NCBI GenBank assembly: GCA_951406725.2
Contig: OX597824.1
Span: 28,582,001 to 28,646,000 of the forward strand
DNA from: Octopus vulgaris
Taxonomy: Eukaryota
Direction of reading: 5' to 3'
DNA: 64,000 bases
The notes beneath the pieces were generated by a model that saw only the letters and a program-made list of their open reading frames with translations, was not told the DNA's origin and made no database searches. Below, piece after piece: positions 1-58,089 of the stretch (its first letter is position 1; the number at the start of each line of letters is the position of its first letter). Position numbers and translations under genes: made by a program.

Positions 1-638
1 TCAGGGCCCCACCCATGCCAGGTTCGTTAACTACCCTGTCTATGATGTAGCGCATCAGATGGAGGTTGTCATGGATGGTCCGGCCTGGCACGGCGCATGT
101 TTGCGCCTTGTCGACCAGTTTCTCGATGACAAGCGCCAACCTCTTGGCTAACACCTTGGCCAAAATTTTCAAGTCTGCATTAAGCAGAGTGATGGGCCTA
201 AAGTTATCTATTACATTTCCCTTGTTTAGATCTTTCTTCAGCAGTGTTACGGCTCCTCGGCTCACAAAACCAGGAATGCTCCCGTTTTGCTGCCAGTTGC
301 AGTACACCGCCGCCAAGAGATCTCCAAACAAGTCTGGCATACAATTGTAAAGCTCGTAGGGTAGACCATCCAAACCCGGTGATTTGTCCCTCGAGCATTC
401 TGCCATCGCTTCCCGCACTTCCGCCGCCGTGATGGCACCTTCGCAGCACCCTGCCTTTCTTGTCGAGAGTCGTGGTAGGCTATGTAGGTAGGCACTGAAG
501 TCCACCCTACGTTCTTGCCCTCCACTCGTTCCGAACAGTCGGGAAAAATGCTGCTGAAAGGCCTCACACATTTTACTTGGCTCGAGCAATTCGCGCCCCT
601 GTTCATCTACCAGTGACCGAATGGTGGCTTTGTTGCCC
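1..638 (-). mobile_element. 5'-truncated Tx1/L1-clade non-LTR retrotransposon, ORF2 reverse-transcriptase region, running off the window edge
   Basis: Manual translation of the minus frame 637->2 is stop-free for 212 aa and absent from the ORF track: ...ITAAEVREAMAECSRDKSPGLDGLPYELY...GAVTLLKKDLNKGNVIDNFRPITLLNADLKILAKVLAKRL...AQTCAVPGRTIHDNLHLMR. These are L1/Tx1-type RT N-terminal motifs. The fragment abuts (GATA)n at 639. Confidence 0.9.

Positions 639-728
<90 letters not shown>
639..728. repeat. (GATA)n microsatellite
   Basis: Perfect tetranucleotide run directly at the LINE truncation point. Confidence 0.97.
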
Positions 729-4647: not shown

Positions 4648-5051
4648 GTGGCTGTGTGGAAAGTAGCCTGTCTACCAACCACAGAGTTCCGGGTTCAGTC
4701 CCACTGAGTGGCACCTTGGGCAAGTGTCTTCTACTATAGCCTCGGGCCGACCAAAGCCTTGTGAGTGGATTTGGTAGACGTAAAATGAAAGAAGCCTGTC
4801 GTATATATGTATGTATATATATATGTATATGTGTGTATATGTTTGTGTGTCTGTGTTTGTCCCCCCTAGCATTGCTTGACAACAGATGCTGGCGTGTTTA
4901 CGTCCCCGTCACTTAGCGGTTCGGCAAAACAGACCGATAGAATAAGTACTGGGCTTACAAAAAATAAGTCCCGGGGTCGATTTGCTCGACTAAAGGCGGT
5001 GCTCCAGCATAGCCGCAGTCAAATGACTGAAACAATTAAAAGCGTAAAGAG
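4648..5051 (+). mobile_element. tRNA-derived SINE, family A (CORE-like motif, internal microsatellite, CR1-like tail)
   Basis: B-box-like gggttcagtccc, ccttgggcaagtgt core and ggcggtgctccagcat..gactgaaac tail. Near-identical to 43121-43528. Confidence 0.9.
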
Positions 5052-9502: not shown

Positions 9503-9726
9503 ATATTTCTTTACGACCCACAAGGAGCTAAACACAGAGGGGACAAACAAGGACAGACAAAGGAATAAGTCGATTACATCGACCCCAGTGCGCAACTGGT
9601 ACTTAATTTATCGACCCCGAAAGGATGAAAGGCAAAGTCGACCTCGGCGGAATTTGAACTCAGAACGTAACGGCAGACGAAATACAGCTACGCATTCCGC
9701 CCGGCGTGCTAACGTTTCTGCCAGCA
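9503..9726 (-). mobile_element. Family B SINE monomer with Tx1-like tail
   Basis: Reverse complement of gctggcagaaacgttagcacgccggg..gagttcaaattccgccgaggtcgac..tttagctccttgtgggtcgtaaagaaat, ending in a TA run. Confidence 0.9.
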
Positions 9727-9921
9727 ACCATAATTTCATAAATAAGAGTGTATAAAGATATATACACAAAGAGAGTAGCCATGGCAGGAATTCTTACATG
9801 CTATAAAGGGCAGTTAACACCAACCACGAAAAAATAATTCTAAAGGTACACCGATAAAGCATAGAATGAAAGGAATTGGTATTTTTAGTTAATCCTCTCT
9901 TTCTCTTTCTCTCTCTCTCTT

Positions 9922-13898: not shown

Positions 13899-14061
<163 letters not shown>

Positions 14062-14065
<4 letters not shown>

Positions 14066-14220
14066 CCTTTCTACTATAGGCACAAGGCTTTACATATTTG
14101 GTGAGAGGCTAGTCGATTATATCGGCCGCAGTCCGTATCTGGTACTTATTTCATCGACCCCGAAAGGATGAAAGGCAAAGTCGACCTCGGCAGGATTTGA
14201 AGCGTAAAAAACGGACGAAA
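14062..14220 (-). mobile_element. Family B SINE, (ATT)n-terminated tail variant
   Basis: atcctttctactataggcacaaggc..tcgaccccgaaaggatgaaaggcaaagtcgacctcggc. Confidence 0.8.
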
Positions 14221-14559
14221 GACCTATAATTCTATCTAATGCTAATTCTATCCATAGGGCATGAAGTTACATACCAAGTTCACTACGCCGGACCCCAGTT
14301 CTTACGTGATACTTATTTCATTGACACCGAAAGCTGGAATTGAAACTCAGAACATAAACACTGATGAAATGTCGCTAAGTATTTTGACCAGCGTGCTAAC
14401 GACTCTGCCAGCTATCCGCTTTATATACGCAATCAGTATTGACCGATATTAGTTTTAATATATTTTTTTCACTAATTTTGCTTAATGCTGGCCTTTAGAC
14501 AAAAAGGGAAAAAACTTGAATTTGAAACTAAAAACATTAAAGGTTAGTGTGAAAATATT

Positions 14560-15046: not shown

Positions 15047-15106
15047 AATTTATTTCAGTTAGAAAAGCTATCAGTTACATATTCATATATTCATCATAAA
15101 CCTAAA

Positions 15107-15505
15107 TCGGTGAGCTAACAAAATCTTTCTTACGTCGGGCAAAATGCGTATCGGTATTTCTTCTGCGCTACGTTGTGGGTTCAAATTCCGCCGAGGTCGA
15201 CTTTGCCTTTCATCCTTTCGGGGTCGATAAATTAAGTACCAGTTACGCACTGGGGTCGATGTAATCGACTTAATACCTATGTCTGTCCTTGTTTGTCCCC
15301 TCTGTGTTTAGCCCCTTGTGGGTAATAAAGAAATAGGTATTTCTTCCGTCTTAACACTTTCGGCACAAATTTTGTCGAGGTCGACTTCGCCTTACATTCT
15401 TTCTGAGTTGATAAATTAAGTACCAGTCGGACACTAGAGTCAATCTAATCGACTCGCCCCTCACCCAAAATTGCCGGCCATGAGCCAAAATTTGAAACTA
15501 TTATT
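15107..15505 (+). mobile_element. Nested family B SINEs: a young Tx1-tailed unit inside an older copy
   Basis: GGTATTTCTTC is duplicated at 15153-15163 and 15336-15346 around a near-consensus unit, while the flanking SINE halves are degenerate. Confidence 0.85.
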
Positions 15506-16005: not shown

Positions 16006-16097
16006 TGTGCATGTGTGCATGTGTGCATGTGTGTATATATATATATATATATACAAGTAGGTATATATCTGGCTAGCTAGCCATCTAGACAGATAAT

Positions 16098-16139
<42 letters not shown>

Positions 16140-16140
<1 letters not shown>

Positions 16141-16386
16141 GTTTCTTTATTGGCCACACAGGGCTGCACACAGATGGGACAAGTTACAAGGTAGAGCTTT
16201 TCTTTTGGGGGATGAAAAAAACAAAAAACAAAAAACAAAAAACAAAAGAAACAAAAAAAGGTGGCGTAGGTGTTCGATCAAAAGGGATCGTAAAAGGGAA
16301 AAAACAACAAAAAAAAAGAAAAGAGAAAAAGAAAAAAAGGAAAAGGAACAAAAGAAAAGAAAAATGAAAAAAGAAGAAAAAAAAGG
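16140..16386 (-). mobile_element. 3' end of a non-LTR retrotransposon inserted in (GATA)n
   Basis: The minus strand is a T-rich UTR ending cttgtcccatctgtgtgcagccctgtgtggccAATAAAgaaact followed by (TATC)n. GATA repeats lie on both sides (16098-16139, 16387-16544). Confidence 0.7.
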
Positions 16387-16448
<62 letters not shown>

Positions 16449-16458
16449 TTAGAAAGAC

Positions 16459-16544
<86 letters not shown>

Positions 16545-29239: not shown

Positions 29240-29461
29240 GTTTTAGTTATTCCACTACGGCCATTCTGGAGCACCGCCTTTTAGTCAAGCAAAATGCCCC
29301 CACGACTTATTCGTTGTAAGCATAGTACTTATTCTATTGTTCTCTTTAGCGTAACCACTAAGTCATGGGGACGTAAACACAGTAGCACTGGTTGTCAAGC
29401 GATGGTGGGGGACAAACACAGACACACAAATGTATACACACATACACACACACACACACAA

Positions 29462-31570: not shown

Positions 31571-32025
31571 TTGTATCTGAATATTGCTTTACGTGCCAAG
31601 TATTATAAAATAGGAAACGAAACTTGTTTAAATTTTCCGAGTTAATTCATTTAAAAAGCAATTCCCGTATTCATTTGCCGTTACACATTTCTATTAACAA
31701 TTTAAAATATTTACTTAAACGGGAGCGACTGTGCCAATTTCGTAGTTGACGAAGAGGAGTAACAGAAATGCATGCGTACTTAACGTAATGACGTCACTTA
31801 CTATGCACTTACTATTCATCCATTGATACGTTTTCTGACTTTAGCTCCTTTTGATATTTTGATGTCACACAAGTTTCAAGGCTGATTCGTCAGACTTTAT
31901 TTTTCAAAACACATTTTTTAATTATCTTTTATTTATTTCAGTCAGTAGACTACGGCCATGTTGGGGCTCTGCCTCGAAAAATTTTAGTCGAATTGATCCC
32001 AGAGATTTTTAATGGCTGGAACTTG
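31571..32025 (+). repeat. Direct duplication, copy 1 (about 455 bp)
   Basis: Nearly identical to 32706-33168. Confidence 0.95.
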
Positions 32026-32628
32026 CTGTTTATATGAAGGACATTTGTCCTCAGCCGTCTGGCTTACTACGTTCAACTGTGGTCTCCTCACAATGTCAAA
32101 TTAATAGCAAAATTTGAAGCAGTGCAGCGGTGAAACACCAGGAAAATTGTATAAATGGAACAGCTGAGCTACTGGAAGGGAAAACGAGTCTACTCACTCG
32201 AGTGAAAAGATATGCAGTGATATAGGCATAAAAGATCCTGGAGGGTTTGGCACCAAACTTTGGCATCAAGAACTATACCAATGCCCGAACAGGATGTCAC
32301 TGCACTGTTTAAGGGCTTTTAGATTGAGTAACATGTTTCGCAATAGCTTGTGACTGAAAGCTCCGCAGCTATTTAATACCTTGCCAAAATATGAGGGATC
32401 TACATAGCGTAGTGGTAGGTATTTTCATGAAACATCTTGACCCACTGCTGTCCAAGCCTAAGATGAACCTACATCACAGCAAGATACTCGATAGACGACA
32501 GCAATATCGAGCTACCGTCTACACCAAAAGCTAATCACAGAGGAATGACCATTGAAAAGTTGATAACAGTGGTGACACCACAGCATGGCTTCAGCCTTTG
32601 GGCTGAAATGCATAAAAGAATAATAGAA
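32026..32628 (+). mobile_element. Decayed CR1-type LINE 3' fragment
   Basis: TFVLSRL..VQLWSPHNVKLIAKFEAVQR..MEQLSYW..YSLE..KILEGLAPNFGI. Ends with cagcatggcttcagcctttgggctgaaa plus an A-rich tail. Confidence 0.8.
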
Positions 32629-32705
32629 TGTATTATAATAAATTTTAATTGACATTATATTATTCACTCACTTTCGTATATTATTTAAATGATAATTATT
32701 TTTTA

Positions 32706-33168
32706 TTGTATCTGAATATTGCTTTACGTGCCAAGTATTATAAAATAGGAAACGAAACTTGTTTAAATTTTCCGAGTTAATTCATTTAATAAGCAATTCC
32801 CGTATTCATTTGCCGTTACACATTTCTATTAACAATTTAAAATATTTACTTAAACGGGAGCGACTGTGCCAATTTCGTAGTTGACGAAGAGGAGTAACAG
32901 AAATGCATGCGTACTTAACGTAATGACGTCACTTACTATGCACTTACTATTCATCCATTGATACGTTTTATGATAGATAACACCCGAACGTGTTAAACAT
33001 GATGTCACACAATTATATTCAAGGCTGATTCGTCAGACTTTATTTTTCAAAACACATTTTTTAATTATCTTTTATTTATTTCAGTCAGTAGACTACGGCC
33101 ATGTTGGGGCTCTGCCTCGAAAAATTTTAGTCGAATTGATCCCAGAGATTTTTAATGGCTGGAACTTG
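32706..33168 (+). repeat. Direct duplication, copy 2
   Basis: Nearly identical to 31571-32025 and continues into an intact SINE. Confidence 0.95.
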
Positions 33169-33401
33169 TTCTATCGGTTTCTTTCGCTGAACCGCTAAGT
33201 TATGAGGGTATTCACATACCAACACCGGTTGTCATACGGTGACAGGGCAACAAAAAGACACACACACATATTCATATTTACATATATAAATACATACATA
33301 TATACATATATAAATACATATATATATTCCACCTGCCTTCGTCTTTTGTTTATTTCCGTAAACCTGCCTTCGTCTTTTGTCTATTTTCATAAAGCTTCCC
33401 T

Positions 33402-33625: not shown

Positions 33626-33724
33626 ACCTAGAGCATATCTAATACTGTAAATCTTTTCCTTATTGACTTTCAAACTATGAAAGGAAATTCTTCAAATTTG
33701 TAAAACTTTATCCACTATACCTTA

Positions 33725-33866
33725 TTAAATTATTTCATGGTTCTTATTTATATTTACATATCCGCCACATGTTTCATTTTAGATCTAATGAATTCATGAT
33801 CTCATCATAAGAACTACACATTTCCATCCGCTGTTTCTTCAAGTCCATAGCATTTTCCCCCGGAAC
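33725..33866 (+). repeat. Direct repeat of about 140 bp; second copy at 34290-34428
   Basis: tatttcatg.ttcttatttatatttacatatcc..catcataagaactacacatttccatcc..cccggaac occurs twice. Confidence 0.9.
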
Positions 33867-35401
33867 GGCTACTCATTATGTTTTCATTGTTATCCTTTTT
33901 TCCTTTATTGTTACTTCTTGTTGATAATTGAAATATCGTTTCTTCGAAGTATATCTGCGCTTACTAATTTCTAATGTTTATTTTGTTGAAATTACTCATT
34001 ATTTCAAGGTCATTCATTTAAAACATAGCAAAAACTTTAGAATCAGAGGCGGAATTGGGAGGAACTCTTCCTAAGCGTGTAAAATTAAAATATAAAAAGA
34101 CAGCAATTTGCATTAGTCCCACCTTTATTCTTTCAAACATGCAGAGAGGAGGCAACAAGAAACAAAAACACAAAAGTTACGCTGAGTGCAGTGTTGAGAT
34201 CTCCAAAGTATTTGCAGCTAAATATTCTCAATTCCACCAGCAGAGTTTCCAGCCACTTTAAGAAACGAAAGCTTTGTTGATAATATTAATATAATATTTC
34301 ATGTTTCTTATTTATATTTACATATCCTCCAGGTGTTTCATCTTAGATCTAATGTATTCACGATCCCATCATAAGAACTACACATTTCCATCCACTGTTC
34401 CTTCAAGTTTTAGCACTTTCCCCGGAACTATGACTATGGATGACTAAATTACAATAGGTGTATAGCCCATTGAATGTATTATATTACATTGTTGTACCAT
34501 TCAAAACTTTTAATTCTTTACAAACAATACACAATGCTTCAACCGAGCTACAATACTCTCCTATTAATATAATAATTTCTTATGTATTTTAGACTGTTGT
34601 CCATATTACTGCACACTTACACTATATCTAACATATCTGTCTGAACATTTCAAGTACTAAACTCAAGTAAATAATATCAATGTAACTATTAACCTCAGTG
34701 AAAGCTTTTTCAACTTTACTCTTATTAACATTGAGAAGAACGTTTTGTAAAGTATATAAAAAGTAGCTGAAATTGTTTGGCTTTACCAAAGTTAAACGGA
34801 ATCAAGGCGACAAATTTCGCTCCCACGTTTTACAGAAAACTATTTTAAGATCAGTGCTCTTCTCTAAACTACATGTAATGACCCCAAAATGATATACAAT
34901 TATAATAAGTTGCTACATACTAGAAAAGGAATCTCAATCTGCAATCAACACCAGATTTCCAATTCATAGATGTGGACTAGTTTTTTCTAGAACCTGAAAG
35001 ATCTAATAAATGCATTTGTCGCTTATTTGTTGCAGAACTTCATCAAAACCAGAAACTTTTACCTGCATTTGATACAGTCTGGAGAGAAAATATCGCGTGC
35101 AACGTTCAGTTCTCTGTTTCAAATTAGCGACAGATGGAAATGCTAAATGCAATATCAATAATTGAACTAGAATTGCAGTAGTTTCGTCAAGAAAAAATGT
35201 ATATTTGTTATGAATATCCTGATTTCAATCACAAGATAGTTTACTGAAAAATATTCATAGATTTTGTCTAGAGATATCAAGCAAACATTGCGTATTATTT
35301 TAAAGGGGAATATAAACAGAAGCAGTTGAGGTTTAGGTTTTCGTTTATTTGAGGATATGTAACAGAATTGCACTCATCTGTCTGTTCAAGTTTCCGTCAA
35401 C

Positions 35402-39587: not shown

Positions 39588-40131
39588 AAAAAGCCACTTC
39601 CCCCCGCCCGTCGAGGAGGGGAGGCTTATATGCTCGAGTATTAGACTATTTTCTTTAGTTAATACACGGTGATCGCTTATAAGCTTTAAGCTTATGAAAT
39701 ATTATTATTGTTATTTAGAGAATTGTAAAATACAGTACCGCTTAACAAGTCATCGCAGAAAACCCACATTATTGTTGTTCCTATCGTTGTTACTGTAACG
39801 AGAGCAGTGATTTTTCGAGAAAAAAGCCTTGCATTAATTTCAGTTCCGTATCTCTCAAACATACTTCAAACAAAGTTAGAAAGTCCAACACCAGGCACCT
39901 AGCACCTGAAATGTCGCTTAGATACTTAACAGCATCTATGGATCGAGCAATGCAATCTTCAGAGTATTCACGGTATCAATATATGCGAGACTTGTAGTTA
40001 GAAAGAACTACGAGATCCTCAGAGAAGTTCTGCACGTTGACAAGCTGAACTGGCTGGCGTTTTTGAGGAGAATTTCAAGCCGAAAGGTGCTATAATAAAC
40101 CATCAGGAAACATTCGACCGGTAATGTTGCT

Positions 40132-40270
40132 GAGATGATTAAATTTTGATTTTAGAGTGAAAGGAGATGTAATCAAGCAGCTCAAGGCAATGAATGCATT
40201 TTGAAGAAACCAATGAAATCACAATTTCTATCTATTTACATCCCCAAGTATGCATGGAATTTCAACTCTA
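40132..40270 (+). repeat. Direct repeat of about 138 bp; second copy at 42231-42369
   Basis: gagatgatt..gtaatcaagca.ctcaaggc..gaagaaaccaatgaaatcacaatttctatctattt..gcatggaatttcaactcta occurs twice. Confidence 0.9.
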
Positions 40271-40649
40271 AAATCACTGCCCCCTCGTTACAGCGTTTTT
40301 GAAGGGAATTTCAAGCTGAAAGATGCTATAGTTAACATTAGACTGGTAGTGTTACTGAGGAATATTACCGAGTCGAAAAAAATTCTACAGAATCAGAAAT
40401 CCCTTCAAATCTGCGCGAACGAGATACGAGCAACGCGACAAAATCTCTTCTTCACACACTTGTTCAATTTTCAGATATTACTGGCTTATAGAGTTATGTC
40501 AAACATCCTTGTCGTACATACTACGACTCACGTGTATCGGGAGTTCAATATCATCTACATACTTGTGTACACAAGTTTACATTATTTAATCTATCTTTGT
40601 AATATTTCCTTCATCCGGCGACCCTGTGGCAGATAAAAGAAATCAACTA

Positions 40650-40706
<57 letters not shown>

Positions 40707-41002
40707 AGATTCGGTAGACACGCAAGGTTTTTCTTTAGAGATAATTGAAATCGCTCAAAGCAAGCGTCAAACACCTATAGATCTCTGATAATATGAAAAT
40801 AACGATTTTCCTATAACACACTGTTACAGATATTCCTGCTGAAAACTAGATATTAAGCTGCTTATATTTTCACCTGATATTATTCTGTGAATGAGAAGTA
40901 AAATCGTTCTTATATTCTATACTTACCGATACTTAATTCCGTTCAATAATTTTGTCAAGTCGCGAACACAAATACAGCACAAACACACAATTGCATAAAC
41001 AA

Positions 41003-41048
<46 letters not shown>

Positions 41049-41179
41049 ACACACACACTGATACACACACTCTTACAGAACCACACATCACAAAAGCATA
41101 TATGTGAATCTTTATGTATATCCATATGTATATACATATATACACTCACACACATATCAATACATGTATAAGAATATAA

Positions 41180-41182
41180 GAT

Positions 41183-41232
<50 letters not shown>

Positions 41233-41269
41233 CAGACAGACAGACAGATAGACATACATACAGACAGAC

Positions 41270-41309
<40 letters not shown>

Positions 41310-41318
41310 GGATAGATG

Positions 41319-41402
<84 letters not shown>

Positions 41403-41412
41403 TAGATATAGA
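41180..41412. repeat. Compound (TA)(GA)(GACA)(GATA) microsatellite
   Basis: Direct inspection. Confidence 0.95.
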
Positions 41413-43120
41413 TATGTATATACGTATATGTGTATTTATGTACGTATATCTTGGTAACAATGAATGGTATACTTTTCTTTTCTTTCCTCAAACACATACA
41501 CTCAAGTCGATACATACATATTACATATATACATGTGTATGCACCCTATCGCAAACATCCGCGCAGACGCACACACAAGCATACACACATGGGGTCGCAC
41601 ACGTATATGCAACATGATGATACTTCTCAGAAATATACAGTATCTCCCAATGTAAAAGGACAAAACACCTTAGACGTAAACCAATGTGGACATAATCGCC
41701 GTAGCCGTCGTGATAACCAAGACAGATGACAATGACAAGTGTGAAAAATCAGAGGACTTACCTAGACATATCGTTTTGGTTCTCTTGGAGCAACTGTGAA
41801 ATTTAAAAATAAGACTTCACACTTTGAAACTGATTCGGTTTATACCACTTACATTCATCCGTTCCCGTTCCAATCATTTATTCTCTTCCATGCTTCGTTC
41901 GGTACAACTCCTAAAGCGCCCTAATCGTTATGCCTAATTTTCTTACATGAATCATCTACCCCCTGGAATACCCTCTGTGCTAGTGTCTTTCTTGTAATAT
42001 CTTTACTTACAAAGGTTCCGAAAGAAAGATATTGATATTAACCACATCGATCTTGCACGGCAGTAAAAGCGAATAGGCACTCTTTCTTCTTTATCCCAAA
42101 CGTTAAAAAATAAATCCAAGTAGAATCAAGTCACAAATTTCAAGATTAGTATAAAACATTTAATGACCGGGATTCTTGACTAATTTTTAATTATATCGAT
42201 TCTGAATGTATCATGAACTTTGGTTATCGGGAGATGATTTAATTTCGATTTTAGATTGTAAGGAGACGTAATCAAGCATCTCAAGGCGATGAATTCATTT
42301 TGAAGAAACCAATGAAATCACAATTTCTATCTATTTGCATCCCTAAGTATGCATGGAATTTCAACTCTAGATAAATATTTCCTTATACGTTTAGACTTTC
42401 TAATTATCCTTTAATTCCTAAGAATGTGGGAATTTGGTTTAGACCAGAGGTTTTCTTTTCATTATGTCAGAAAATTACAAATATCTACAAAGTAGTTTTG
42501 AATGTAAAATAAATTATTTTTCATTCCCTGCATTTGTTGTTTTAGACAATGTTATTAGAATTCCATTAGCATCATTACAAGTTTATTAGCATACACCTAC
42601 AAACATACGCACATAGACATACATGCATGCACGTACATACAAGCACACGCACGCACCCATATTTTTAAAGGATTTTACCGTTGACTTAGCCAAGGATTAA
42701 ACGGCAATTTATGTTTCATTTTCAAGCAATACCTGTTCTGCTCTTATTAAGAGACCACATGAAATCGAATAAAAATGTGTGAAGTCGCTGCCTGTTGAAA
42801 TGTTGAAGGTAGATTCCGTTGGAAACATCTAGTATGGCTTCAATAAATAGACATTGCGTTTCAGTAGCATCGAACTTTATCTTTTCCTTATCTAATATTT
42901 ACTGTTCATGCCTGAAGCAAATATGTGTTGGACAATGTCATAGCTGAAGGTTTTGATTTGCTTAACAATTGAATATGTGTCCAGCCATCAGTCGTCGGTT
43001 TCGCCACAAATAAGTTTAGAGAAATCTTTAATATTTCGGATAGCAAAATTAAATATTAATAATAATTTGTCCAGCATGCAAACGATTTTACCAGCGGGTG
43101 AACTTCAGAATCATTAACAT

Positions 43121-43528
43121 AGGCGCAGGAGTGGCTGTGTGGTAAGTAGCTTGCTAAACAACCACATGGTTCCGGGTTCAGTCCCACTGCGTGGCATCTT
43201 GGGCAAGTGTCTTCTGCTATAGCCCCGGGCCGACCAATGCCTTGTGATTGGATTTGGTAGACGGAAACTGAAAGAAGCCTGTCGTATATATGTATATATA
43301 TATGTATGTGTGTGTGTGTTTGTGTGTCTGTGTTTGTCCCCCTAGCATTGCTTGACAACCGATGCTGGTGTGTTTATGTCCCCGTCACTTAGCGGTTCGG
43401 CAAAAGAGACTGATAGAATAAGTACTGGGCTTACAAAGAATAAGTGCCGGGGTCGATTTGCTCGACTAAAGGCGGTGCTCCAGCATGGCCGCAGTCAAAT
43501 GACTGAAACAAGTAAAAGAGTAAAGAGT
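43121..43528 (+). mobile_element. Family A SINE, full length and young
   Basis: aggcgcaggagtggctgtgtggtaag head, gggttcagtccc B box, CORE-like motif and CR1-like tail ending aaagagtaaagag. Confidence 0.93.
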
Positions 43529-43534
43529 ATACCA

Positions 43535-44132
43535 GACAAATTGCTTGGTGGCATTAAGTCCGTCTTAGTTCTGAGTTAAAATTTCGTCGAGGTTGTCATT
43601 GCTTATCATCCTTTCGGGACGATAAAATAGGTTAAAAGTTGAGCACTGGGGTGGATTTAATCGATTTAACCCTTTCCCCGAAATTGCTGACGTTGTGCCA
43701 AATTTGAAACCAATATTTTAGATAGTGACATTCATCGAAAAAGCTTGTTGCCACTTATTGTCTTCAAGGCGAAATAACTTACTCTAGAGGCGTTTTCTAG
43801 GTATGTATCTTTGATTTCGGTCGCAGAGAACAGCGGAAAAGCGGGTGTTTCTAGTTTCAAAGCTTGCATGGAATATAGTGTTTAATTAATGATCAGTGAA
43901 AGGCGTAAACATATGAATATGATATTAGTTTCTAATTTTGGAGCAAGGCCAGCAAGTCTGCGGAAGCGGGAAAGTCGATTACATGAACACCAATGCTCAA
44001 ATGGTACTTATGTTATCGATCCGACAGAAAGTAAAGTCAAACTCAGATGGAATTTAAACTCAGAACATAAAAATGGATGAAATATCACTAAGCAATTTGC
44101 CCGACGTCTTAACGATTCTACCAGCTAGCCTG
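43535..44132. mobile_element. Two degenerate family B SINEs in tail-to-tail orientation (43535-43716 +, 43925-44132 -)
   Basis: ttctgagttaaaattt..catcctttcggg..gtgccaaatttgaaaccaat, plus a reverse-complement copy. Confidence 0.7.
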
Positions 44133-50937: not shown

Positions 50938-51044
50938 CTATATATATATATGCACCTATATATATATATATATATATATACATACAAACACACACACTCA
51001 CGTACACACGCATATACAAATGAATATGTACCTATGCATATTAT

Positions 51045-51448
51045 ATATATTCTTTGCCACTCTATGCACAAGGTCCGAAATTTTGGGAGAGGAGACCAGT
51101 CGATTAGACCGATCCCAGTACGCAACTGGTATTTCATTTATAGACCCCGAACGGATGAAAGTCAAAGTCGACCTCGGTGGAATTTGAACTCAGAACGTAG
51201 AGGCAGACGAAATACCTATTTCTTTACTACCCACAAGAGGCTAAACACAGAGAAGACAAACAAGGACAGACAAACGGATTAAGTCGATTATATCGAACCC
51301 AGCGCGTAACTGGTACTTAATTTATCGACCCCGAAAGGATGAAAGGCAAAGTCGACCTCGGCGGAATTTGAACTCAGAATGTAATGGCAGAAGAAATACC
51401 ACTAAGCATTTCGCCAGGCGTGCTAACGTTTCTGCAAGCTCGCCGCTT
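51045..51448 (-). mobile_element. Family B SINE dimer or nest
   Basis: Head, Tx1-tailed unit, junction aaagaaata|ggtatttcgtc, then a second body with the alternative tail. Confidence 0.9.
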
Positions 51449-51532
51449 TATATATTATATATATGTTGTGTATACATTATGTGTGTATGTAGATATTGAT
51501 ATACATATATATATATATATATATATTTACAT

Positions 51533-51570
<38 letters not shown>

Positions 51571-52215
51571 GGCTATATAGATTTAGATATAGATATATAA
51601 TGTATATAATTATGTGTGTGAGTGTGTTTGCATATATATCTATTTAAATAAATACTTAGTCGTTTTTGACACGCTTCTGCATAATCGTGTTATTATTTTA
51701 CAAGTCTAATTTACCAAAGTGCGTGGATACACTTTGCTTGATAATACGCGTGTCACATGATAAAACACGGCATGACACCAGCAAGGCCCTGAATCCCTTA
51801 ACTACAAGAACAACGACTATGTAAAGTACGTATCTTATTACACTGTACAGCAACAACAACACAGGATAGAAAGGAAACTACGAGTAGGGCAAAGCCAATA
51901 TAATTAATAGTGAAAAATAAAACTAGGACATGAAGAAGCCAAATAGCACACATTTTAAGAGGAAATGAATTAATCTGAACACAAGCGTAACAAAAGAAAC
52001 TTGACTAAAACCCAGCAGGAACGGGTTCTGTTATATGAATAAAAAAAATATTATTTAAAGAAGTGATGATGGTGTGATGATGGTGTGAGAGCCTTTAAAC
52101 TAATTAAATTATGTTTGCATTCCAGATACATTGTAGAAGAGATTTAATTAAATTGTAATGGAAAGATATTAATAAAATGATCCATGCATTTCTTTAAGTA
52201 TTGTCGCACACTTAT

Positions 52216-53478
52216 TAAGGCGGCGAGCTGGCAGAAACGTTAGCACGCCGGGCCGAGTGAAATGGTTAGCAGTATTTCGTCTGTCGCTACGTTCTGAGTT
52301 CAAATTCCGCCGAGGTAGACTTTGCCTTTCATCGATTAAATAAGTACCAGTTATGCACTGGTGTCGATGTAATCGACTTAATCTGTTTGTTTCTTCCCTC
52401 TGTGTTTATCCCCTTGTGGATGGTAAAGAAATAGGTATTTTGTCTGCCGTTACGTTCTGAGTTCAAATTTCGCCGTGGTCGACTTTGCCTTTCACCCTTT
52501 CGGCGTCCTTCAATTAAGTACCAGTTACGCACTGAGGTCGATGTAATCGACTTAATCCGTTTGTCTGTCCTTGTTTGTCTTCTCTTTGTTTGACCCACAA
52601 GGGGTCAAACAAAGAGAGGACAAACAGAAAAAGGTATTTCGTCAGCCGCTACGTTCTGAGTTCAAATTCTGCCGAGGTCGCCGTTGCCTTTCATCCTTTC
52701 GGGGTCGATAAATTAAGTACCAGTTACGCACTGAGGTCGATCTAATTGACTTAATCCCTTTGTCTGTCCTTGTTTGTCCTCTCTATTTTTAGCCCCTTGT
52801 GGGCACTAAAGAAATAAGAACTCTTATCGTGCCGGACAAAATTATTAGCGACATTTCGTCCGTCTTTACGTTCCGTGTTCAAATTTACTCAAGGTCGATT
52901 TTGTTTTTTAGCTTTTCGGGTTTGATATAAGTTCCAGTTGAACATTGCGTCTTATGTAATCGACTTACTCCCTCTGCTGAACTTGCTGGCCTTGTGCCAA
53001 ATTTTGAAACGAATATTTGATACATAAATAACGCGACGTTCTGACAAAATTGCTAGCGCGCCGGACAAAATTCTTAGCGTCATTTCGTCCGTCTTTACGT
53101 TCCGAGTTCAAATTCAGTCGAGGTCAACTTTGCCATTTATCCTTTTGGGTTTGATAAAATCAGTTCCAGTTGAACATTGCGTCTTATGTAATCGACTTAC
53201 TGCCTCTCCCGTACTTGCTGGCCTTGTGCCAAATTTTGAAACCAATATTTTATTCATAAGTAAGGCGACGTGCTGACAAAACTACTAGCACGCGGGACAA
53301 AATATTTAGTGGTGTTTCGTCCATCCTTACGTCCCGAGTTCAAATTCAGCCGAGGCTGACTTTGTTCTCCATCATTTCGAGGTCGATAAAATATATACCA
53401 GTTGAACAAATGAGTTGATGTAATCGATTCATGCCTCACCCAAATTTGCTGCCCTTGTGCCAAAAATTGAAATCAATG
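52216..53478 (+). mobile_element. Head-to-tail array of six family B SINE units
   Basis: Three young Tx1-tailed units (52216-52815), then three older units (about 52816-53020, 53030-53252, 53262-53478). Confidence 0.9.
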
Positions 53479-53965
53479 TAAGATATAATCCCAAACAGAC
53501 ACTCACTTCTCTCTTATTCTGTCTTCCTACCCCTTTCTCTTTCTCAATCCCTCTGTCTTAAACACTCTCACTGCTCGCTTCTCCATATACCAACAGGAAT
53601 AGCGGAAGGATTAAGAAGTCCGTTGCTTGGCGTCTTAGGCAAGTATCTTCTACTGTTAAGTCGAATGGACCCAAGACTTGAAATTGAAATTCGATAAGTA
53701 AAAACTACATGGACATCCATGGAATGAGTTGTACTTGTAAGTCAAAACCACATTTTTGCCGTAGTAAGGGAGACACTATTTGAAATTTATCTATGTGCAC
53801 AACTGTCAATGGAATACTCAGCCAGTTATACGGGAATTCAATCTGAAGGTAATTCACTTGATCGGGTGACCATATCCTTATCGTCGAAACCAACGGAACC
53901 CCATTACATTCATACACGCTCACACATGCATACGCACACACACATACATAGACGCTCACACACAC

Positions 53966-54022
<57 letters not shown>

Positions 54023-54115
54023 ATATATATATATGTATGTATATATTTATATACATTTATATATATATATATATATACACACACATATATATATTTATAT
54101 ACATGTATATATATA

Positions 54116-54151
<36 letters not shown>

Positions 54152-54323
54152 CATACATATATATATATGTATATATATGTATATATGTATGTATATATAT
54201 ATACATATGAACATATATATGTATATATGTATATATATACATATATATGTAAATATGTATATATATATAAACGTATACATACATATATATATATACATAT
54301 GTATATATATATATATATATACA

Positions 54324-54707
54324 CTAGCAGTATCGCCTGGCGTTGCTCAGGTTTGTAAGGGAAATAAGTATAAAGCATTTTTAGAGAGTTATAGCCAAAA
54401 AATAACAAAAAAATGGAAAAAAATGATGGTAAATTTTTTTTTGAGAGTTAAAAAAGGATGGAGCTGCGTCCCCTAGACAGTTTGTGGTTCGTGTTTCTGA
54501 TTCTCGACCCCATGTCGAATTTATCGATTTTTTTCAGAACTGGGGGAACTTTTCAAAATTTTGGCTGCGTTAGTTTTGAATTATGATATTGGGCTATGTA
54601 TGTGTCAAGTTTCATCAGAATCGGTTGAAAGCCGTGGTCAGGGTGAGGGTACAAGCAAACAGACACACAGAAACACGCACAGACAAACTGCCGTTTATAT
54701 AGAGAGA
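54324..54707 (-). mobile_element. Non-autonomous Helitron
   Basis: The minus strand starts A|TCTCTCTATATAAAC and ends with the hairpin cctg-agcaacgc-cagg then CTAG|T. Inserted at AT within (TA)n with no TSD. Confidence 0.85.
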
Positions 54708-54718
54708 TATATATATAC

Positions 54719-54772
<54 letters not shown>

Positions 54773-54984
54773 ATGTATGCCCTTATGAACAAGTGACGGC
54801 ATCTCTACGTCTATACATTCACGCAATGACCTCTAATAAACCACATTATTACACACAATCGCACATGCCCCTGCTCGTATGCATACGCACATTTTGATAT
54901 TGTAATTAAGATTTCGCAATTGTTATTTTCTTTTCTTTTTGCTCTGTTATTTCTGTTTCGTTCATATTTCTTGTTCCCTGCTGT

Positions 54985-54988
54985 CTCC

Positions 54989-55022
<34 letters not shown>

Positions 55023-55215
55023 CAAGAAGGCCAACAACACCAACGGTACCACCGGCGCCACCAGCTCCAAAATGGCAACTCTACTAACGATAATATTGAC
55101 ACCGAACAAATACTTCCCAACAGTAACCCAGACCTGATCATCATCATCATCATTACCATACAGCATACTAACAAGAACAACAACAGACAAGACCATCACC
55201 AACAACTTCAGTACC
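54985..55215. repeat. Cryptic CAC/CAA/CAT triplet low-complexity tract
   Basis: Degenerate trinucleotide repeats. Confidence 0.75.
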
Positions 55216-56274
55216 AATAAAAACTAGTGCAACGCTAAACATTATATTTACACTTTAGAGTCCTGAAGGGAAAACGTGTACTTGATACGAGCACATTTAA
55301 TTATATCTCTCTCCTTTAGCGAAAATCATTTTCATTTAATAAGGAAATATCATAAATAGAGATGTGAGAATTAAAAAAAAAAAGCTATGAGTTTAAAAGT
55401 CGTGAGGTAACTATAATATAGTCAATTGAAATGGCCTCAAACACACGCCTTGCTAATTGACTGTATGTCTTGGAATTTAAACCCGCTATGTTAAATATAG
55501 CAATGTTTTTCCATGAAGAATCGGATAGAAATTCGTAGATATTAAAATTATACGTGTCGTTTATAGTTTTGTTTACATGTTTATATGCTTGTGTGTGACT
55601 GTGTACGTATGTAGAAATCTTAATACGCGTCTGTGGATACTTTAGATTATTAATATGAGAGTACATGTGTGTGTGTGTATGTATGTGTGTGTCTGTGTGT
55701 GTCTGTGTGTGGCTGTGCTATTTGTTAATCGAGAGGAATTCAGGTAACGGATTTGGTTTCGATTCATGCTGAAAACGTGTGTAATTATATTGAAAATAGC
55801 CTGGAGAGTGTAATAAATATTCCGTGTGCACTTGTAACCATTTCCTTTAATCTACAAATCTATTATCCAATCAAAGAGAAAACACTAATGTGTTAGTCTT
55901 AGGGGAGCAGCATATTTTGTTTTCCATTATTTCTTTTATAATTTACATTTGACGAACTGCGGCCATGCTGGAGCATCGCCTTCAAACAATGTATAATTGA
56001 CTATATAGCCCCCAGATTTACTCATCGTAGTTAGATACGAAATGCATGCTATTATTATGTGTAAGGAGAGGCCATTCAGTTTGCACATTGATACTACATC
56101 GTAGTTGATTTTGAATATACTGGTTCAAAATCTGCGTCGATATTAGTGCGTCCACAAGTATCTTTGTGTCGTTATATTTATATATCTATCTATCTATCTA
56201 TATATATATATATATATATATATCTGTATATTTGTATATTTTATCCTCCTGTGATATCATTAGTTAATATATTG

Positions 56275-56574
56275 TTTATTGTTTGATCCTTCTCGAGCCA
56301 TGCCTGGCTCATAACGGCCGGTTTCCCGGTTTCCTTGGCGTATAGGTTCCCCACCTGGACGGGTCGCCGGTCCGTCGTAGGTGAGCTGCAAAATGGAGGA
56401 GGAAAGAGTGAGAGAAAGTTGTGGCGAAAGAGTCAGCAGATGTTCGCCATTATCTTCTGCTGGAGCCGCGTGGAGCTTAGATGTTTCGCTCAGAAACACA
56501 CACATCGCCCGGTCTGAGATTCGAACCCGCGATCTCGAGTCCGCTGCTCTAACCACTAGGTCATGTGCCGCCAC
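56275..56574 (-). mobile_element. tRNA-derived SINE with Meta-like 3' half
   Basis: Minus strand: tgacctagtggttagagcagcggactcg..ggttcgaatctc..gacggaccggcgacccgtccagg..gaaaccgggaaaccgg. Confidence 0.88.
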
Positions 56575-56809
56575 AGTTAATATATAACTAAGAAGATAAA
56601 TCTAAACAAACAATTTCGTATTATTGACTACAAACACGCACAGAAACTTCGTTATAAACAAAACAACTATTAGTTCGTTCATGTTGTTAGGTATTACAAA
56701 TGCCTCTCACTACAATAACAATCAGAATAACAAAAACAAATTGCCCCGTTTATCATATTCGTGATCCTGAAATTGCATCAATATATGCTACTCATTCATA
56801 TACCTAATA

Positions 56810-57397
56810 TTGGTCCCAATTTGCGGGAAGAACATAAATCGATTACATCGACCCCAGTGTTCTACTACTACTTATTTTACCGACGCGAAAAGGGATGAAG
56901 GGTAAAGTCTACCTCAGTGACATTTCAACTCGGAACATAAAGACTGATGAATTGCCGTCCAACATTTAGCCCGGCGTGGTAATGATTCCGCCAGATCGCT
57001 GCCTTTCTACTACAGGTACAAGGCCCGAAATTTGGGGGAGGGGACTAGTCGATTAAATCAACCCGTGTTTGAAGGTACTTAATTTATCGACCCTGAAAGG
57101 ATGAAAGGCAAAGTTGACCTCGGCGGAATTTGAACTCAGAACGTAGCGGTAGAAGAAATACCTATTTCTTTACTACGCACAAGAAGCTAAACACAGAGAC
57201 GACAAACAAAGACAGACAAACGTATTAAGTCGATTATATCGACACCAGTGCGTAACTGGTACTTATTTAATCGACACCGAGAGGATGAAAGGCAAAGCCG
57301 ACGACGGCGGAATTTGAACTCAGAACGTAACGGCAGACGAAATACCGCTAAGCATTTCGCCCGGCTTGCTAACGTTTCTGCCAGCTCGACGCCTTAA
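56810..57397 (-). mobile_element. Family B SINE cluster: old monomer 56810-57003 plus dimer 57004-57397
   Basis: Same aaagaaata|ggtatttc junction near 57162. Confidence 0.88.
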
Positions 57398-58089
57398 TGA
57401 CATTCTTATTATTGTTTATCATTAACAAACTGAAAGAGAATATTTACAAAATAACGGAACTATTATTAGCAAAATAAATACGTGCCAAAACGTCTTCATT
57501 AATTTCGAATATAAAATCCTTTCTGCTATAGGCACAAGGCCTGAAATTGTGGGAGAGGTGGTTAATCAATTACATTGAATAACCACTTTTCCCACAATAA
57601 GTAGCTGGTATTAATTTCATCGATCACGAATTGAAAGATAAAATATATATTTACATATACACGCCCGCGTGCGTGTGAGAGAGAGAGAGTGTTTGTGTGT
57701 ATGTGTTAGATTCATCCGTATCGTTGAAGAAGTTTTACAGAGAATTGGAGGAAAGAAAGGACATGCAAAGTGAAAGGAAGAGCTCTGAAATCGAACTAGT
57801 TACCTGAGAAACGCAAACATAAGACCGCCCCGTCTGACAAAGCTGAACCAACAGTGGTGCCACTTGCTACGAACAGAACAGGATAGCAACGGCCTAAAGA
57901 AAATGTGGACTATGCAAGCCTAGAGACAAGTTGCCTTCAATTTTAAGAAATCACAAAGGACCGCTCTGTAGTAGAGCCTTCCGATGAGGAGTCGGATTGA
58001 TTGGCCACGGCCGGACACACTTCTCCAATGTTATGTCCTTGGTCATTGTCGACTATACAGACGAATTATGAATAATAGTAATAATAATT

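What the first reader, a model, noticed from the sequence alone, without database searches (positions are those of the whole stretch)
16140..16386. LINE 3' end in (GATA)n is homologous to the SINE tail: candidate Tx1 LINE/SINE partnership
Seen: the minus strand ends cttgtaacttgtcccatctgtgtgcagccctgtgtggccaataaagaaa, and the family B SINE tail (15288-15333) reads cttgt---ttgtcccctctgtgtttagccccttgtgggtaataaagaaa. The fragment lies in GATA repeats in the same orientation as the RT at 1-638. Known: SINEs borrow the 3' end of their mobilising LINE, usually CR1, L2 or RTE. Inference: this is the 3' UTR of the Tx1 family, and the SINE is driven by a sequence-specific Tx1-type enzyme, which would explain its targeting.
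Basis: partly seen in the sequence, partly recalled or inferred. Interest (0 to 1): 0.8.

Follow-up and report, generated by a model that had tools for sequence, protein, structure and literature searches.

The report
Octopus SINE with likely Tx1-derived tail
In an octopus-type genome, a short jumping repeat (SINE) ends in nearly the same ~50 letters as a truncated element lodged in GATA repeats and keeps landing at one exact spot inside its own relatives; it likely borrows the machinery of a site-specific Tx1-type retrotransposon, but the link between that tail and a Tx1 gene is inferred, not shown.

Summary
The fragment is T-rich, has AATAAA near its end and lies inside (CTAT)n in the same sense as the intact RT at 2-637, whose near-twin is classed L1-Tx1 in a published octopus set. 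SINE B is site-specific: 4 of 7 tails abut GGTATTTC inside another SINE head (0 of 15 non-B), and at 15153 a young body (95%) sits in an old host (70-75%) with an 11-nt duplication. Not shown: that the fragment is physically a Tx1 3' UTR (no genome; every linking search was empty or could not run), and the GATA family and the SINE use different targets, so the driver would be a sister family. Precedent: crocodilian SINEU/Tx1-Mar (shared target, no shared tail). Verdict: partly supported; new variant of a known kind.

The parts
16140..16386 (-). 5'-truncated 3' end of a probable non-LTR retrotransposon (T-rich stretch, then 75-nt tail); probable Tx1-clade 3' UTR
   Evidence: single copy in window; 60% T over 16216-16300; no ORF link shown
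16142..16191 (-). 50-nt terminal segment homologous to the SINE B tail
16146..16151 (-). AATAAA signal 4 nt before the end of the homology; no poly(A) follows
16086..16139 (.). GATA array on the 3' side of the fragment, (CTAT)n on the element strand
16387..16544 (.). GATA array on the 5' side of the fragment
2..637 (-). 5'-truncated L1-Tx1 ORF2 piece (linker and start of RT), 212 codons without stop, runs off the window
639..728 (.). GATA array at the 5' junction of the RT piece, (CTAT)n on the element strand
15153..15335 (+). SINE B body and tail, 95% like the other B copies, inserted in an older SINE copy
15105..15152 (+). Head of the older recipient SINE (70% like B heads)
15336..15500 (+). 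Headless remainder of the recipient (C-type tail, 75% like B core); its first 11 nt repeat 15153-15163 (target-site duplication)
51217..51447 (-). SINE B copy; tail abuts GGTATTTC of an A-type copy
57163..57393 (-). SINE B copy; tail abuts GGTATTTC of an A-type copy
52220..52816 (+). Three nested B units: tail abuts the site at 52441; fold-back tail then the site at 52633; last tail abuts a C-type head at another position
9505..9735 (-). SINE B copy ending in (AT)n, not at the site

Best explanation
16140-16386 is likely the 5'-truncated 3' UTR of a Tx1-clade LINE that inserts into (CTAT)n; its last 50 nt are homologous to the tail of SINE subfamily B, and B is likely copied in trans by a sister Tx1 family predicted to cut at GGTATTTC inside SINE heads. 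Shown: tail homology ending at the same 3' point; both LINE-like pieces in (CTAT)n in the same sense; B tails at one site in three kinds of recipient with an 8-11 nt duplication; a young B body inside an old host. Inferred: B arose when a SINE of the shared head+core family acquired a Tx1 3' end by template switch; Tx1 ORF2 recognises that end, nicks the SINE head between the presumed A and B boxes and primes reverse transcription; the cDNA 5' part pairs with the homologous upstream head, so the product has one head, and the recipient's A box plus B's B box would give a new transcribable B unit.
For: Homology: 39/50 columns, 0 of 500 shuffles, best non-B hit of 4262 windows; no match to A, C, D tails. 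RT 2-637 is 70/75 aa identical to an O. sinensis cluster classed L1-Tx1, 69% to a zf-RVT-bearing ORF2, best PDB match human L1 ORF2 for that homologue. Perfect GATA arrays cover 904 of 64000 bases, so a random insertion lands in one in the RT's sense about 0.7% of the time (post hoc, n=2). T-rich UTR with terminal AATAAA is seen in distant L1/Tx1-type loci L003, L006, L007, L040. Targeting: 4 of 7 B tails vs 0 of 15 non-B tails abut the site, Fisher p 0.005; locus 15105: head 33/47, body 174/183, remainder 89/119 identical to B majority, p 8e-6 and 7e-7; duplicated run 11, 8, 8 nt at three loci. Tx1 families target microsatellites, RNA genes and transposons, and mobilise SINEU (PMC4494074). 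Sister families exist: 36 L1-Tx1 clusters in O. sinensis, 80 families in O. vulgaris, 13 recently active.
Against: No sequence links the fragment to an ORF (empty; laid nothing; no genome). Targets differ: 0 of 7 B copies in GATA, and no LINE piece at GGTATTTC in the window. Identity is only ~80%, and 3 of 7 single B copies are not significant. No poly(A), whereas the distant L1/Tx1-type loci have one. The terminal hairpin that both can form is no more stable than shuffles (z +0.66 and -1.35). The left part of the B tail also matches a segment of a second SINE family (21/24, 0 of 500 shuffles), so the tail may be a mosaic. Other site-specific clades are abundant: 27 Dong-R4 and 13 CRE clusters in O. 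sinensis. 2 of 7 B tails end elsewhere and 1 ends in a fold-back.
Confidence: 0.6

Rival explanations
1. The fragment is the 3' UTR of another site-specific LINE clade (Dong-R4 or CRE) that also uses GATA arrays, and that clade drives SINE B.
For: Dong-R4 is the most numerous recently active LINE group in O. vulgaris (1129 insertions; PMC13282606 Table 1); 27 Dong-R4 and 13 CRE clusters in O. sinensis; R4-clade/SINE-like pairs exist in Entamoeba (PMC3747384 Table 1); no ORF link was obtained.
Against: Dong elements, including the snail one, are reported to target (TAA)n (PMC3812793 passage); the only coding LINE piece found in GATA here is Tx1; T-rich UTR with AATAAA fits L1/Tx1.
Confidence: 0.15
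2. The GATA-targeting Tx1 family itself mobilises B, and the site preference comes from read-through SINE RNA ending in the site sequence that pairs with nicked SINE heads, not from a dedicated endonuclease.
For: B has no run of 4 T in its majority sequence, so transcripts of nested copies could carry the site at their 3' end; co-transcription with target strengthens targeting in other LINEs (PMC4494074 discussion). Both targets are pyrimidine-rich downstream of the junction.
Against: 0 of 7 B copies in GATA arrays; ~20% tail divergence against 4-9% among B copies.
Confidence: 0.1
3. The fragment is not a LINE UTR but a non-autonomous chimera or an old, headless B-type tail joined to T-rich DNA; B's partner is unknown.
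For: Single copy in the window, no coding sequence; direction of borrowing cannot be read from one copy.
Against: No SINE core upstream; 3-nt insertion and ~20% divergence exceed all B copies; sits in the same repeat and sense as a young Tx1 piece.
Confidence: 0.1
4. B is not site-specific: B-A/B-C units are a dimeric SINE family amplified as a block, or the tail likeness is chance.
For: Only 7 B copies seen; at two loci B and recipient are of similar divergence (89-94%).
Against: Recipients are of three types (C, A, B); at 15105 the B body is much younger than both host halves with an 11-nt duplication; shuffles 0 of 500 and 0 of 2000.
Confidence: 0.05

Closest known systems
SINEU / Tx1-Mar of crocodilians (Kojima 2015, PMC4494074; parts 1-4 of 5 read, supplement not available)
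   Same: SINE with target preference for another repeat, tandem insertions around a duplication, mobilisation by a Tx1 lineage inferred
   Different: SINEU heads are U1/U2, end in poly(A), target Mariner-N4, and no LINE sharing the SINEU-1 3' end was found; here a tRNA-like SINE shares ~50 nt of 3' end with the candidate LINE, has no poly(A) and targets its own relatives
Kibi, Koshi and crocodilian microsatellite-targeting Tx1 families (PMC4494074; PMC3812793 passages)
   Same: Tx1-clade LINE in a pyrimidine-rich microsatellite on its sense strand
   Different: Reported targets are (TC)n, (TTC)n, (TTCC)n, (TTTC)n; here (CTAT)n/(GATA)n, from two junction loci only; no paper on a GATA-targeting Tx1 turned up
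Stringent SINE/LINE pairs sharing a 3' tail (Ohshima 2013, PMC3747384; part 1, tables and passages read)
   Same: Shared terminal ~50 nt ending at the same point
   Different: The 58 pairs are mostly CR1/L2/RTE; only 3 SINEs have L1-clade tails (maize, sorghum, Chlamydomonas) and no Tx1 row was seen in Table 1; no solid shared stem-loop here
Octopus tRNA-derived SINEs OK, OR1, OR2 (Ohshima and Okada 1994; paper not seen, only cited in PMC4758252, PMC4824008, PMC3531059)
   Same: Abundant octopus SINEs with tRNA-like heads
   Different: Whether family A/B/C is OK or an OR family is recalled, not tested; no statement on their partner LINE or targeting was found

Membership tests
Tx1 clade (RT piece 2-637) | RT domain of non-LTR type | tested here: met
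   RVT_1 E 2.4e-6, 27.8 bits, just under the 29.6 cut-off because only the start of the domain is present; homologue P0001 passes
Tx1 clade (RT piece 2-637) | Placement in L1-Tx1 on an RT tree | tested here: met
   Indirect: 70/75 aa identical to O.sinensis_120_LINE, labelled L1-Tx1 in PMC10294476 Table S7; no tree with named Tx1 references built here
Tx1 clade (RT piece 2-637) | N-terminal APE endonuclease and ORF1 | not testable with these tools
   Truncated copy; more distant homologues P0005, P0122 carry Exo_endo_phos
Tx1 clade (RT piece 2-637) | Sequence-specific target | tested here: inconclusive
   One 5' junction in (CTAT)n
Tx1 3' UTR (fragment 16140-16386) | Contiguous with a Tx1 ORF2 | tested here: inconclusive
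   Searches found no linking sequence; these collections hold almost no octopus DNA; laid nothing
Tx1 3' UTR (fragment 16140-16386) | T-rich UTR with terminal AATAAA | tested here: met
   comparators
Tx1 3' UTR (fragment 16140-16386) | 3' poly(A), as in the distant L1/Tx1-type loci | tested here: not met
   Tail runs into (CTAT)n with no A tract; whether octopus Tx1 families have poly(A) is unknown
SINE (subfamily B) | Short, interspersed, multicopy, non-coding | tested here: met
   22 cores, 7 with B tail, in 64 kb
SINE (subfamily B) | tRNA-derived head with A and B boxes | tested here: inconclusive
   Box-like motifs by eye; ARAGORN 0 genes; no tRNA hit in Rfam over 51000-57500
Stringent SINE/LINE pair | Shared 3'-terminal sequence | tested here: met
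   39/50 columns, 0 of 500 shuffles, with the fragment, whose LINE identity is inferred
Stringent SINE/LINE pair | Conserved 3' stem-loop | tested here: inconclusive
   Same hairpin outline in fragment and B15335 but z +0.66 and -1.35; not kept in other copies
Stringent SINE/LINE pair | Same insertion signature for SINE and LINE | tested here: not met
   Fragment in (CTAT)n; 0 of 7 B copies there, 4 of 7 at GGTATTTC
Stringent SINE/LINE pair | Trans-mobilisation shown by assay | not testable with these tools
   Needs an experiment

The most novel reading that the evidence does not exclude
A self-homing SINE: subfamily B captured a Tx1 3' end, is delivered by a Tx1 endonuclease whose target is the SINE head itself, and joins its 5' end by pairing with the resident head, so every insertion takes over a relative's Pol III promoter and beheads it. 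It would be the first Tx1/SINE pair with a shared tail, with octopus Tx1 families sharing one 3' end but split between (GATA)n and SINE-head targets.
Probability: 0.4. Interest if true: 0.7.

Novelty: new variant of a known kind. Interest (0 to 1): 0.5.

Why it matters
If true it gives a Tx1-clade LINE with sequence-based (stringent) 3' recognition and no poly(A), unlike the relaxed poly(A) mode of most L1-clade elements, and names a partner for one of the SINE families that make up about 12% of the O. vulgaris genome (PMC13282606). It would also be a case of a SINE parasitising its own relatives' promoters, and a natural pair of related endonucleases with different short targets, useful for studying how Tx1 specificity changes. 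For marker work, GATA microsatellites in octopus would often have repetitive flanks.

Tried and rejected
No genome is held. Tail patterns found 0 matches in viral, metagenome and genome (56) contigs; the SINE core 0 in viral contigs. RT or ORF2 queries found no relatives in viral (19, 80) or genome contigs; the metagenome scan gave 80 loci of only ~30% identity with no tail match. Translations of the fragment in one antisense and one sense frame found 0 of 15 and 0 of 36 candidates. None of the 8 stored homologues with a recognisable C-terminus reads through into a tail-like sequence. The read-laying run laid nothing, so the runs (19 of 24 rows hold half or more of the RT's 59 words; 13 studies, one a possible source) were never laid. 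Bivalve repeat libraries in PMC10294476 files 24 and 25 gave no terminal match (65, 66; long lines are cut in that copy). Rejected: homology of B tail to A/C tails as the source of the match (23-272 of 500 shuffles); D tail related to fragment (35 of 500). Folding gave no significant structure. Rfam and ARAGORN gave no tRNA call. ESM Atlas only said RT (81). Earlier-findings look-ups returned nothing. Literature searches found no report of an octopus Tx1/SINE pair or of a Tx1/SINE shared tail; Repbase Reports, Dfam, the Zenodo library of PMC13282606, the SINEU supplement and Ohshima and Okada 1994 could not be seen and may hold it.

Full report
Setting. The window is microsatellite- and SINE-rich animal DNA; the closest named homologues of its only RT are from Argonauta hians and near-identical RTs are listed for Octopus sinensis and O. 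bimaculoides, so it is octopus-type. No whole genome is held.

Observation. blastn finds the tail of the fragment in four SINE B copies, best 80% over 50 columns, E 3.5e-7. Against the majority of six B copies the match is 39/50 columns, the best non-B hit among 4262 windows (45 against 34), 0 of 500 shuffles; the distal 33 nt alone give 26/33, 0 of 2000. It does not match the A, C or D tails of the same SINE group. Both matches end at AAAGAAA, the last bases of each element. The homology is real and specific.

What the fragment is. It is single-copy in the window, non-coding, 60% T over 16216-16300, has AATAAA at 16151-16146 and no poly(A), and has GATA arrays on both sides. On its own strand the array reads (CTAT)n, as at the 5' junction of the RT piece. 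Perfect arrays cover 904 of 64000 bases against 2840 for (TA)n; a random insertion would do this about 0.7% of the time (post hoc, two loci). Distant L1/Tx1-type loci L003, L006, L007 and L040 have 42-49% T UTRs closed by AATAAA and poly(A) (38 of the 80 loci examined, most without a readable end). The RT piece is 212 codons without a stop, 69% identical to P0001 and 70/75 aa identical, by eye, to O.sinensis_120_LINE, which PMC10294476 places in L1-Tx1. The simplest reading is that both pieces are truncated copies of one GATA-targeting Tx1 family or of close sisters. This is inference: no call produced DNA or protein spanning ORF2 and the tail, and laid nothing.

What the SINE does. There are 22 cores of one head+core SINE group with several tails. 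Of 7 B-tailed units, 4 are followed directly by the motif GGTATTT at head position ~48 of another copy (15336, 51216, 52441, 57162), one reaches it after a fold-back of its tail (52633), one abuts a C-type head elsewhere (52817) and one ends in (AT)n (9504); 0 of 15 non-B cores are followed by the site (p 0.005; if the 14224 D-tail case is counted as non-B, 1 of 15, p 0.02). Recipients are C, A and B types. At 15105-15500 the upstream head is 33/47, the B body 174/183 and the downstream remainder 89/119 identical to the B majority (p 8e-6 and 7e-7), with 11 identical bases at the site on both sides; the other two loci tested have 8. A young B therefore entered an old copy at this site and its 5' end joined at the homologous position. 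This argues for repeated targeted insertion rather than one dimer.

Mechanism. Shown: tail homology, shared repeat context of the two LINE-like pieces, site preference and duplication of B. Inferred: B got its tail from a Tx1 RNA by template switch; a Tx1 ORF2 binds the tail, nicks the SINE head and primes reverse transcription; the cDNA pairs with the upstream head, which explains why only one head is seen; the resident A box and the incoming B box (both recognised by eye only; searches gave no tRNA call) would form a new promoter. Because 0 of 7 B copies are in GATA and the tails differ by ~20% while B copies are 91-96% like their majority, the driver is more likely a sister family than the GATA family. 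There is room for one: 36 L1-Tx1 clusters in O. sinensis, 80 families in O. vulgaris with 13 recently active. Confidence 0.6.

Against. The hairpin both tails can form is not more stable than shuffles. The left part of the B tail also matches a second SINE family (21/24, 0 of 500), so the LINE-derived part may be only the last ~35-40 nt. No poly(A). Dong-R4 (27 clusters) and CRE (13) are other site-specific candidates, though Dong is reported on (TAA)n (PMC3812793 passage).

Comparison with what is known. Kojima 2015 (PMC4494074, parts 1-4 of 5 read) inferred that Tx1-Mar mobilises SINEU from shared targets and found no LINE sharing the SINEU-1 3' end; it also lists Tx1 families on (TC)n, (TTC)n, (TTCC)n and (TTTC)n. 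Ohshima 2013 (PMC3747384; part 1, tables, passages) counts 58 pairs, only 3 with L1-clade tails, and I saw no Tx1 row. Passages of PMC5381603, PMC5786205, PMC4758252, PMC4824008, PMC9115989, PMC8967140 and PMC3531059 and parts 1-2 of PMC13282606 name no octopus Tx1/SINE pair. Nine searches found none; Repbase Reports, Dfam and the 1994 octopus SINE paper were not visible, so prior description cannot be excluded. It works like a stringent SINE/LINE pair combined with SINEU-style targeting; membership of this exact LINE family as the partner fails the shared-target test.

Verdict. Observation confirmed; interpretation partly supported; new variant of a known kind; interest 0.5, rising to about 0.7 if a Tx1 family is found at the SINE-head site with a closer tail.

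Noticed in passing
window 14224-14290 (minus): A different ~60-nt tail ('D') also sits directly before the same head site of an A-type copy; could be another SINE tail or the 3' end of a LINE that uses the site. Not significantly like the fragment (35 of 500 shuffles).
   Followed up: partly
window 52565-52633: A B tail folds back on itself as a near-perfect inverted repeat and is then followed by the head site; looks like a template switch during insertion.
   Followed up: no
window 13959-14110 (minus): An A-type SINE tail runs into a 36-unit (ATT)n array; Dong elements target (TAA)n, so A-type copies may have a different (Dong-R4 or RTE) partner.
   Followed up: no
window 52820-53485: Three older C-type SINE copies in head-to-tail tandem.
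   Followed up: no
window 43124-43720: A copy of the second SINE family (internal microsatellite) is inserted into a C-type head at another position; SINE heads may be generally favoured targets.
   Followed up: no
window 4831-4870, 43291-43345, 29408-29435: A TG-rich segment of the second SINE family matches the left half of the B tail (21/24); B may be a mosaic.
   Followed up: partly
A, B and C tails (e.g. 14075, 15312, 53220): All three tail types can form a small hairpin with a CTTGT loop and different stems, although B is not significantly like A or C in sequence.
   Followed up: partly
window 9690-9735 (minus): The head of this B copy is more diverged (83%) than its core (97.5%), as if it too joined an older head, though its 3' end is in (AT)n.
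   Followed up: no
window 31571-33234, 33722-34428, 40057-42369: Local duplications of 45-500 bp not related to the SINEs.
   Followed up: no
L040, about 300-450 bases after the ORF2 stop: A distant L1/Tx1-type element is followed after its poly(A) by degenerate TTAGGG-like repeats.
   Followed up: no
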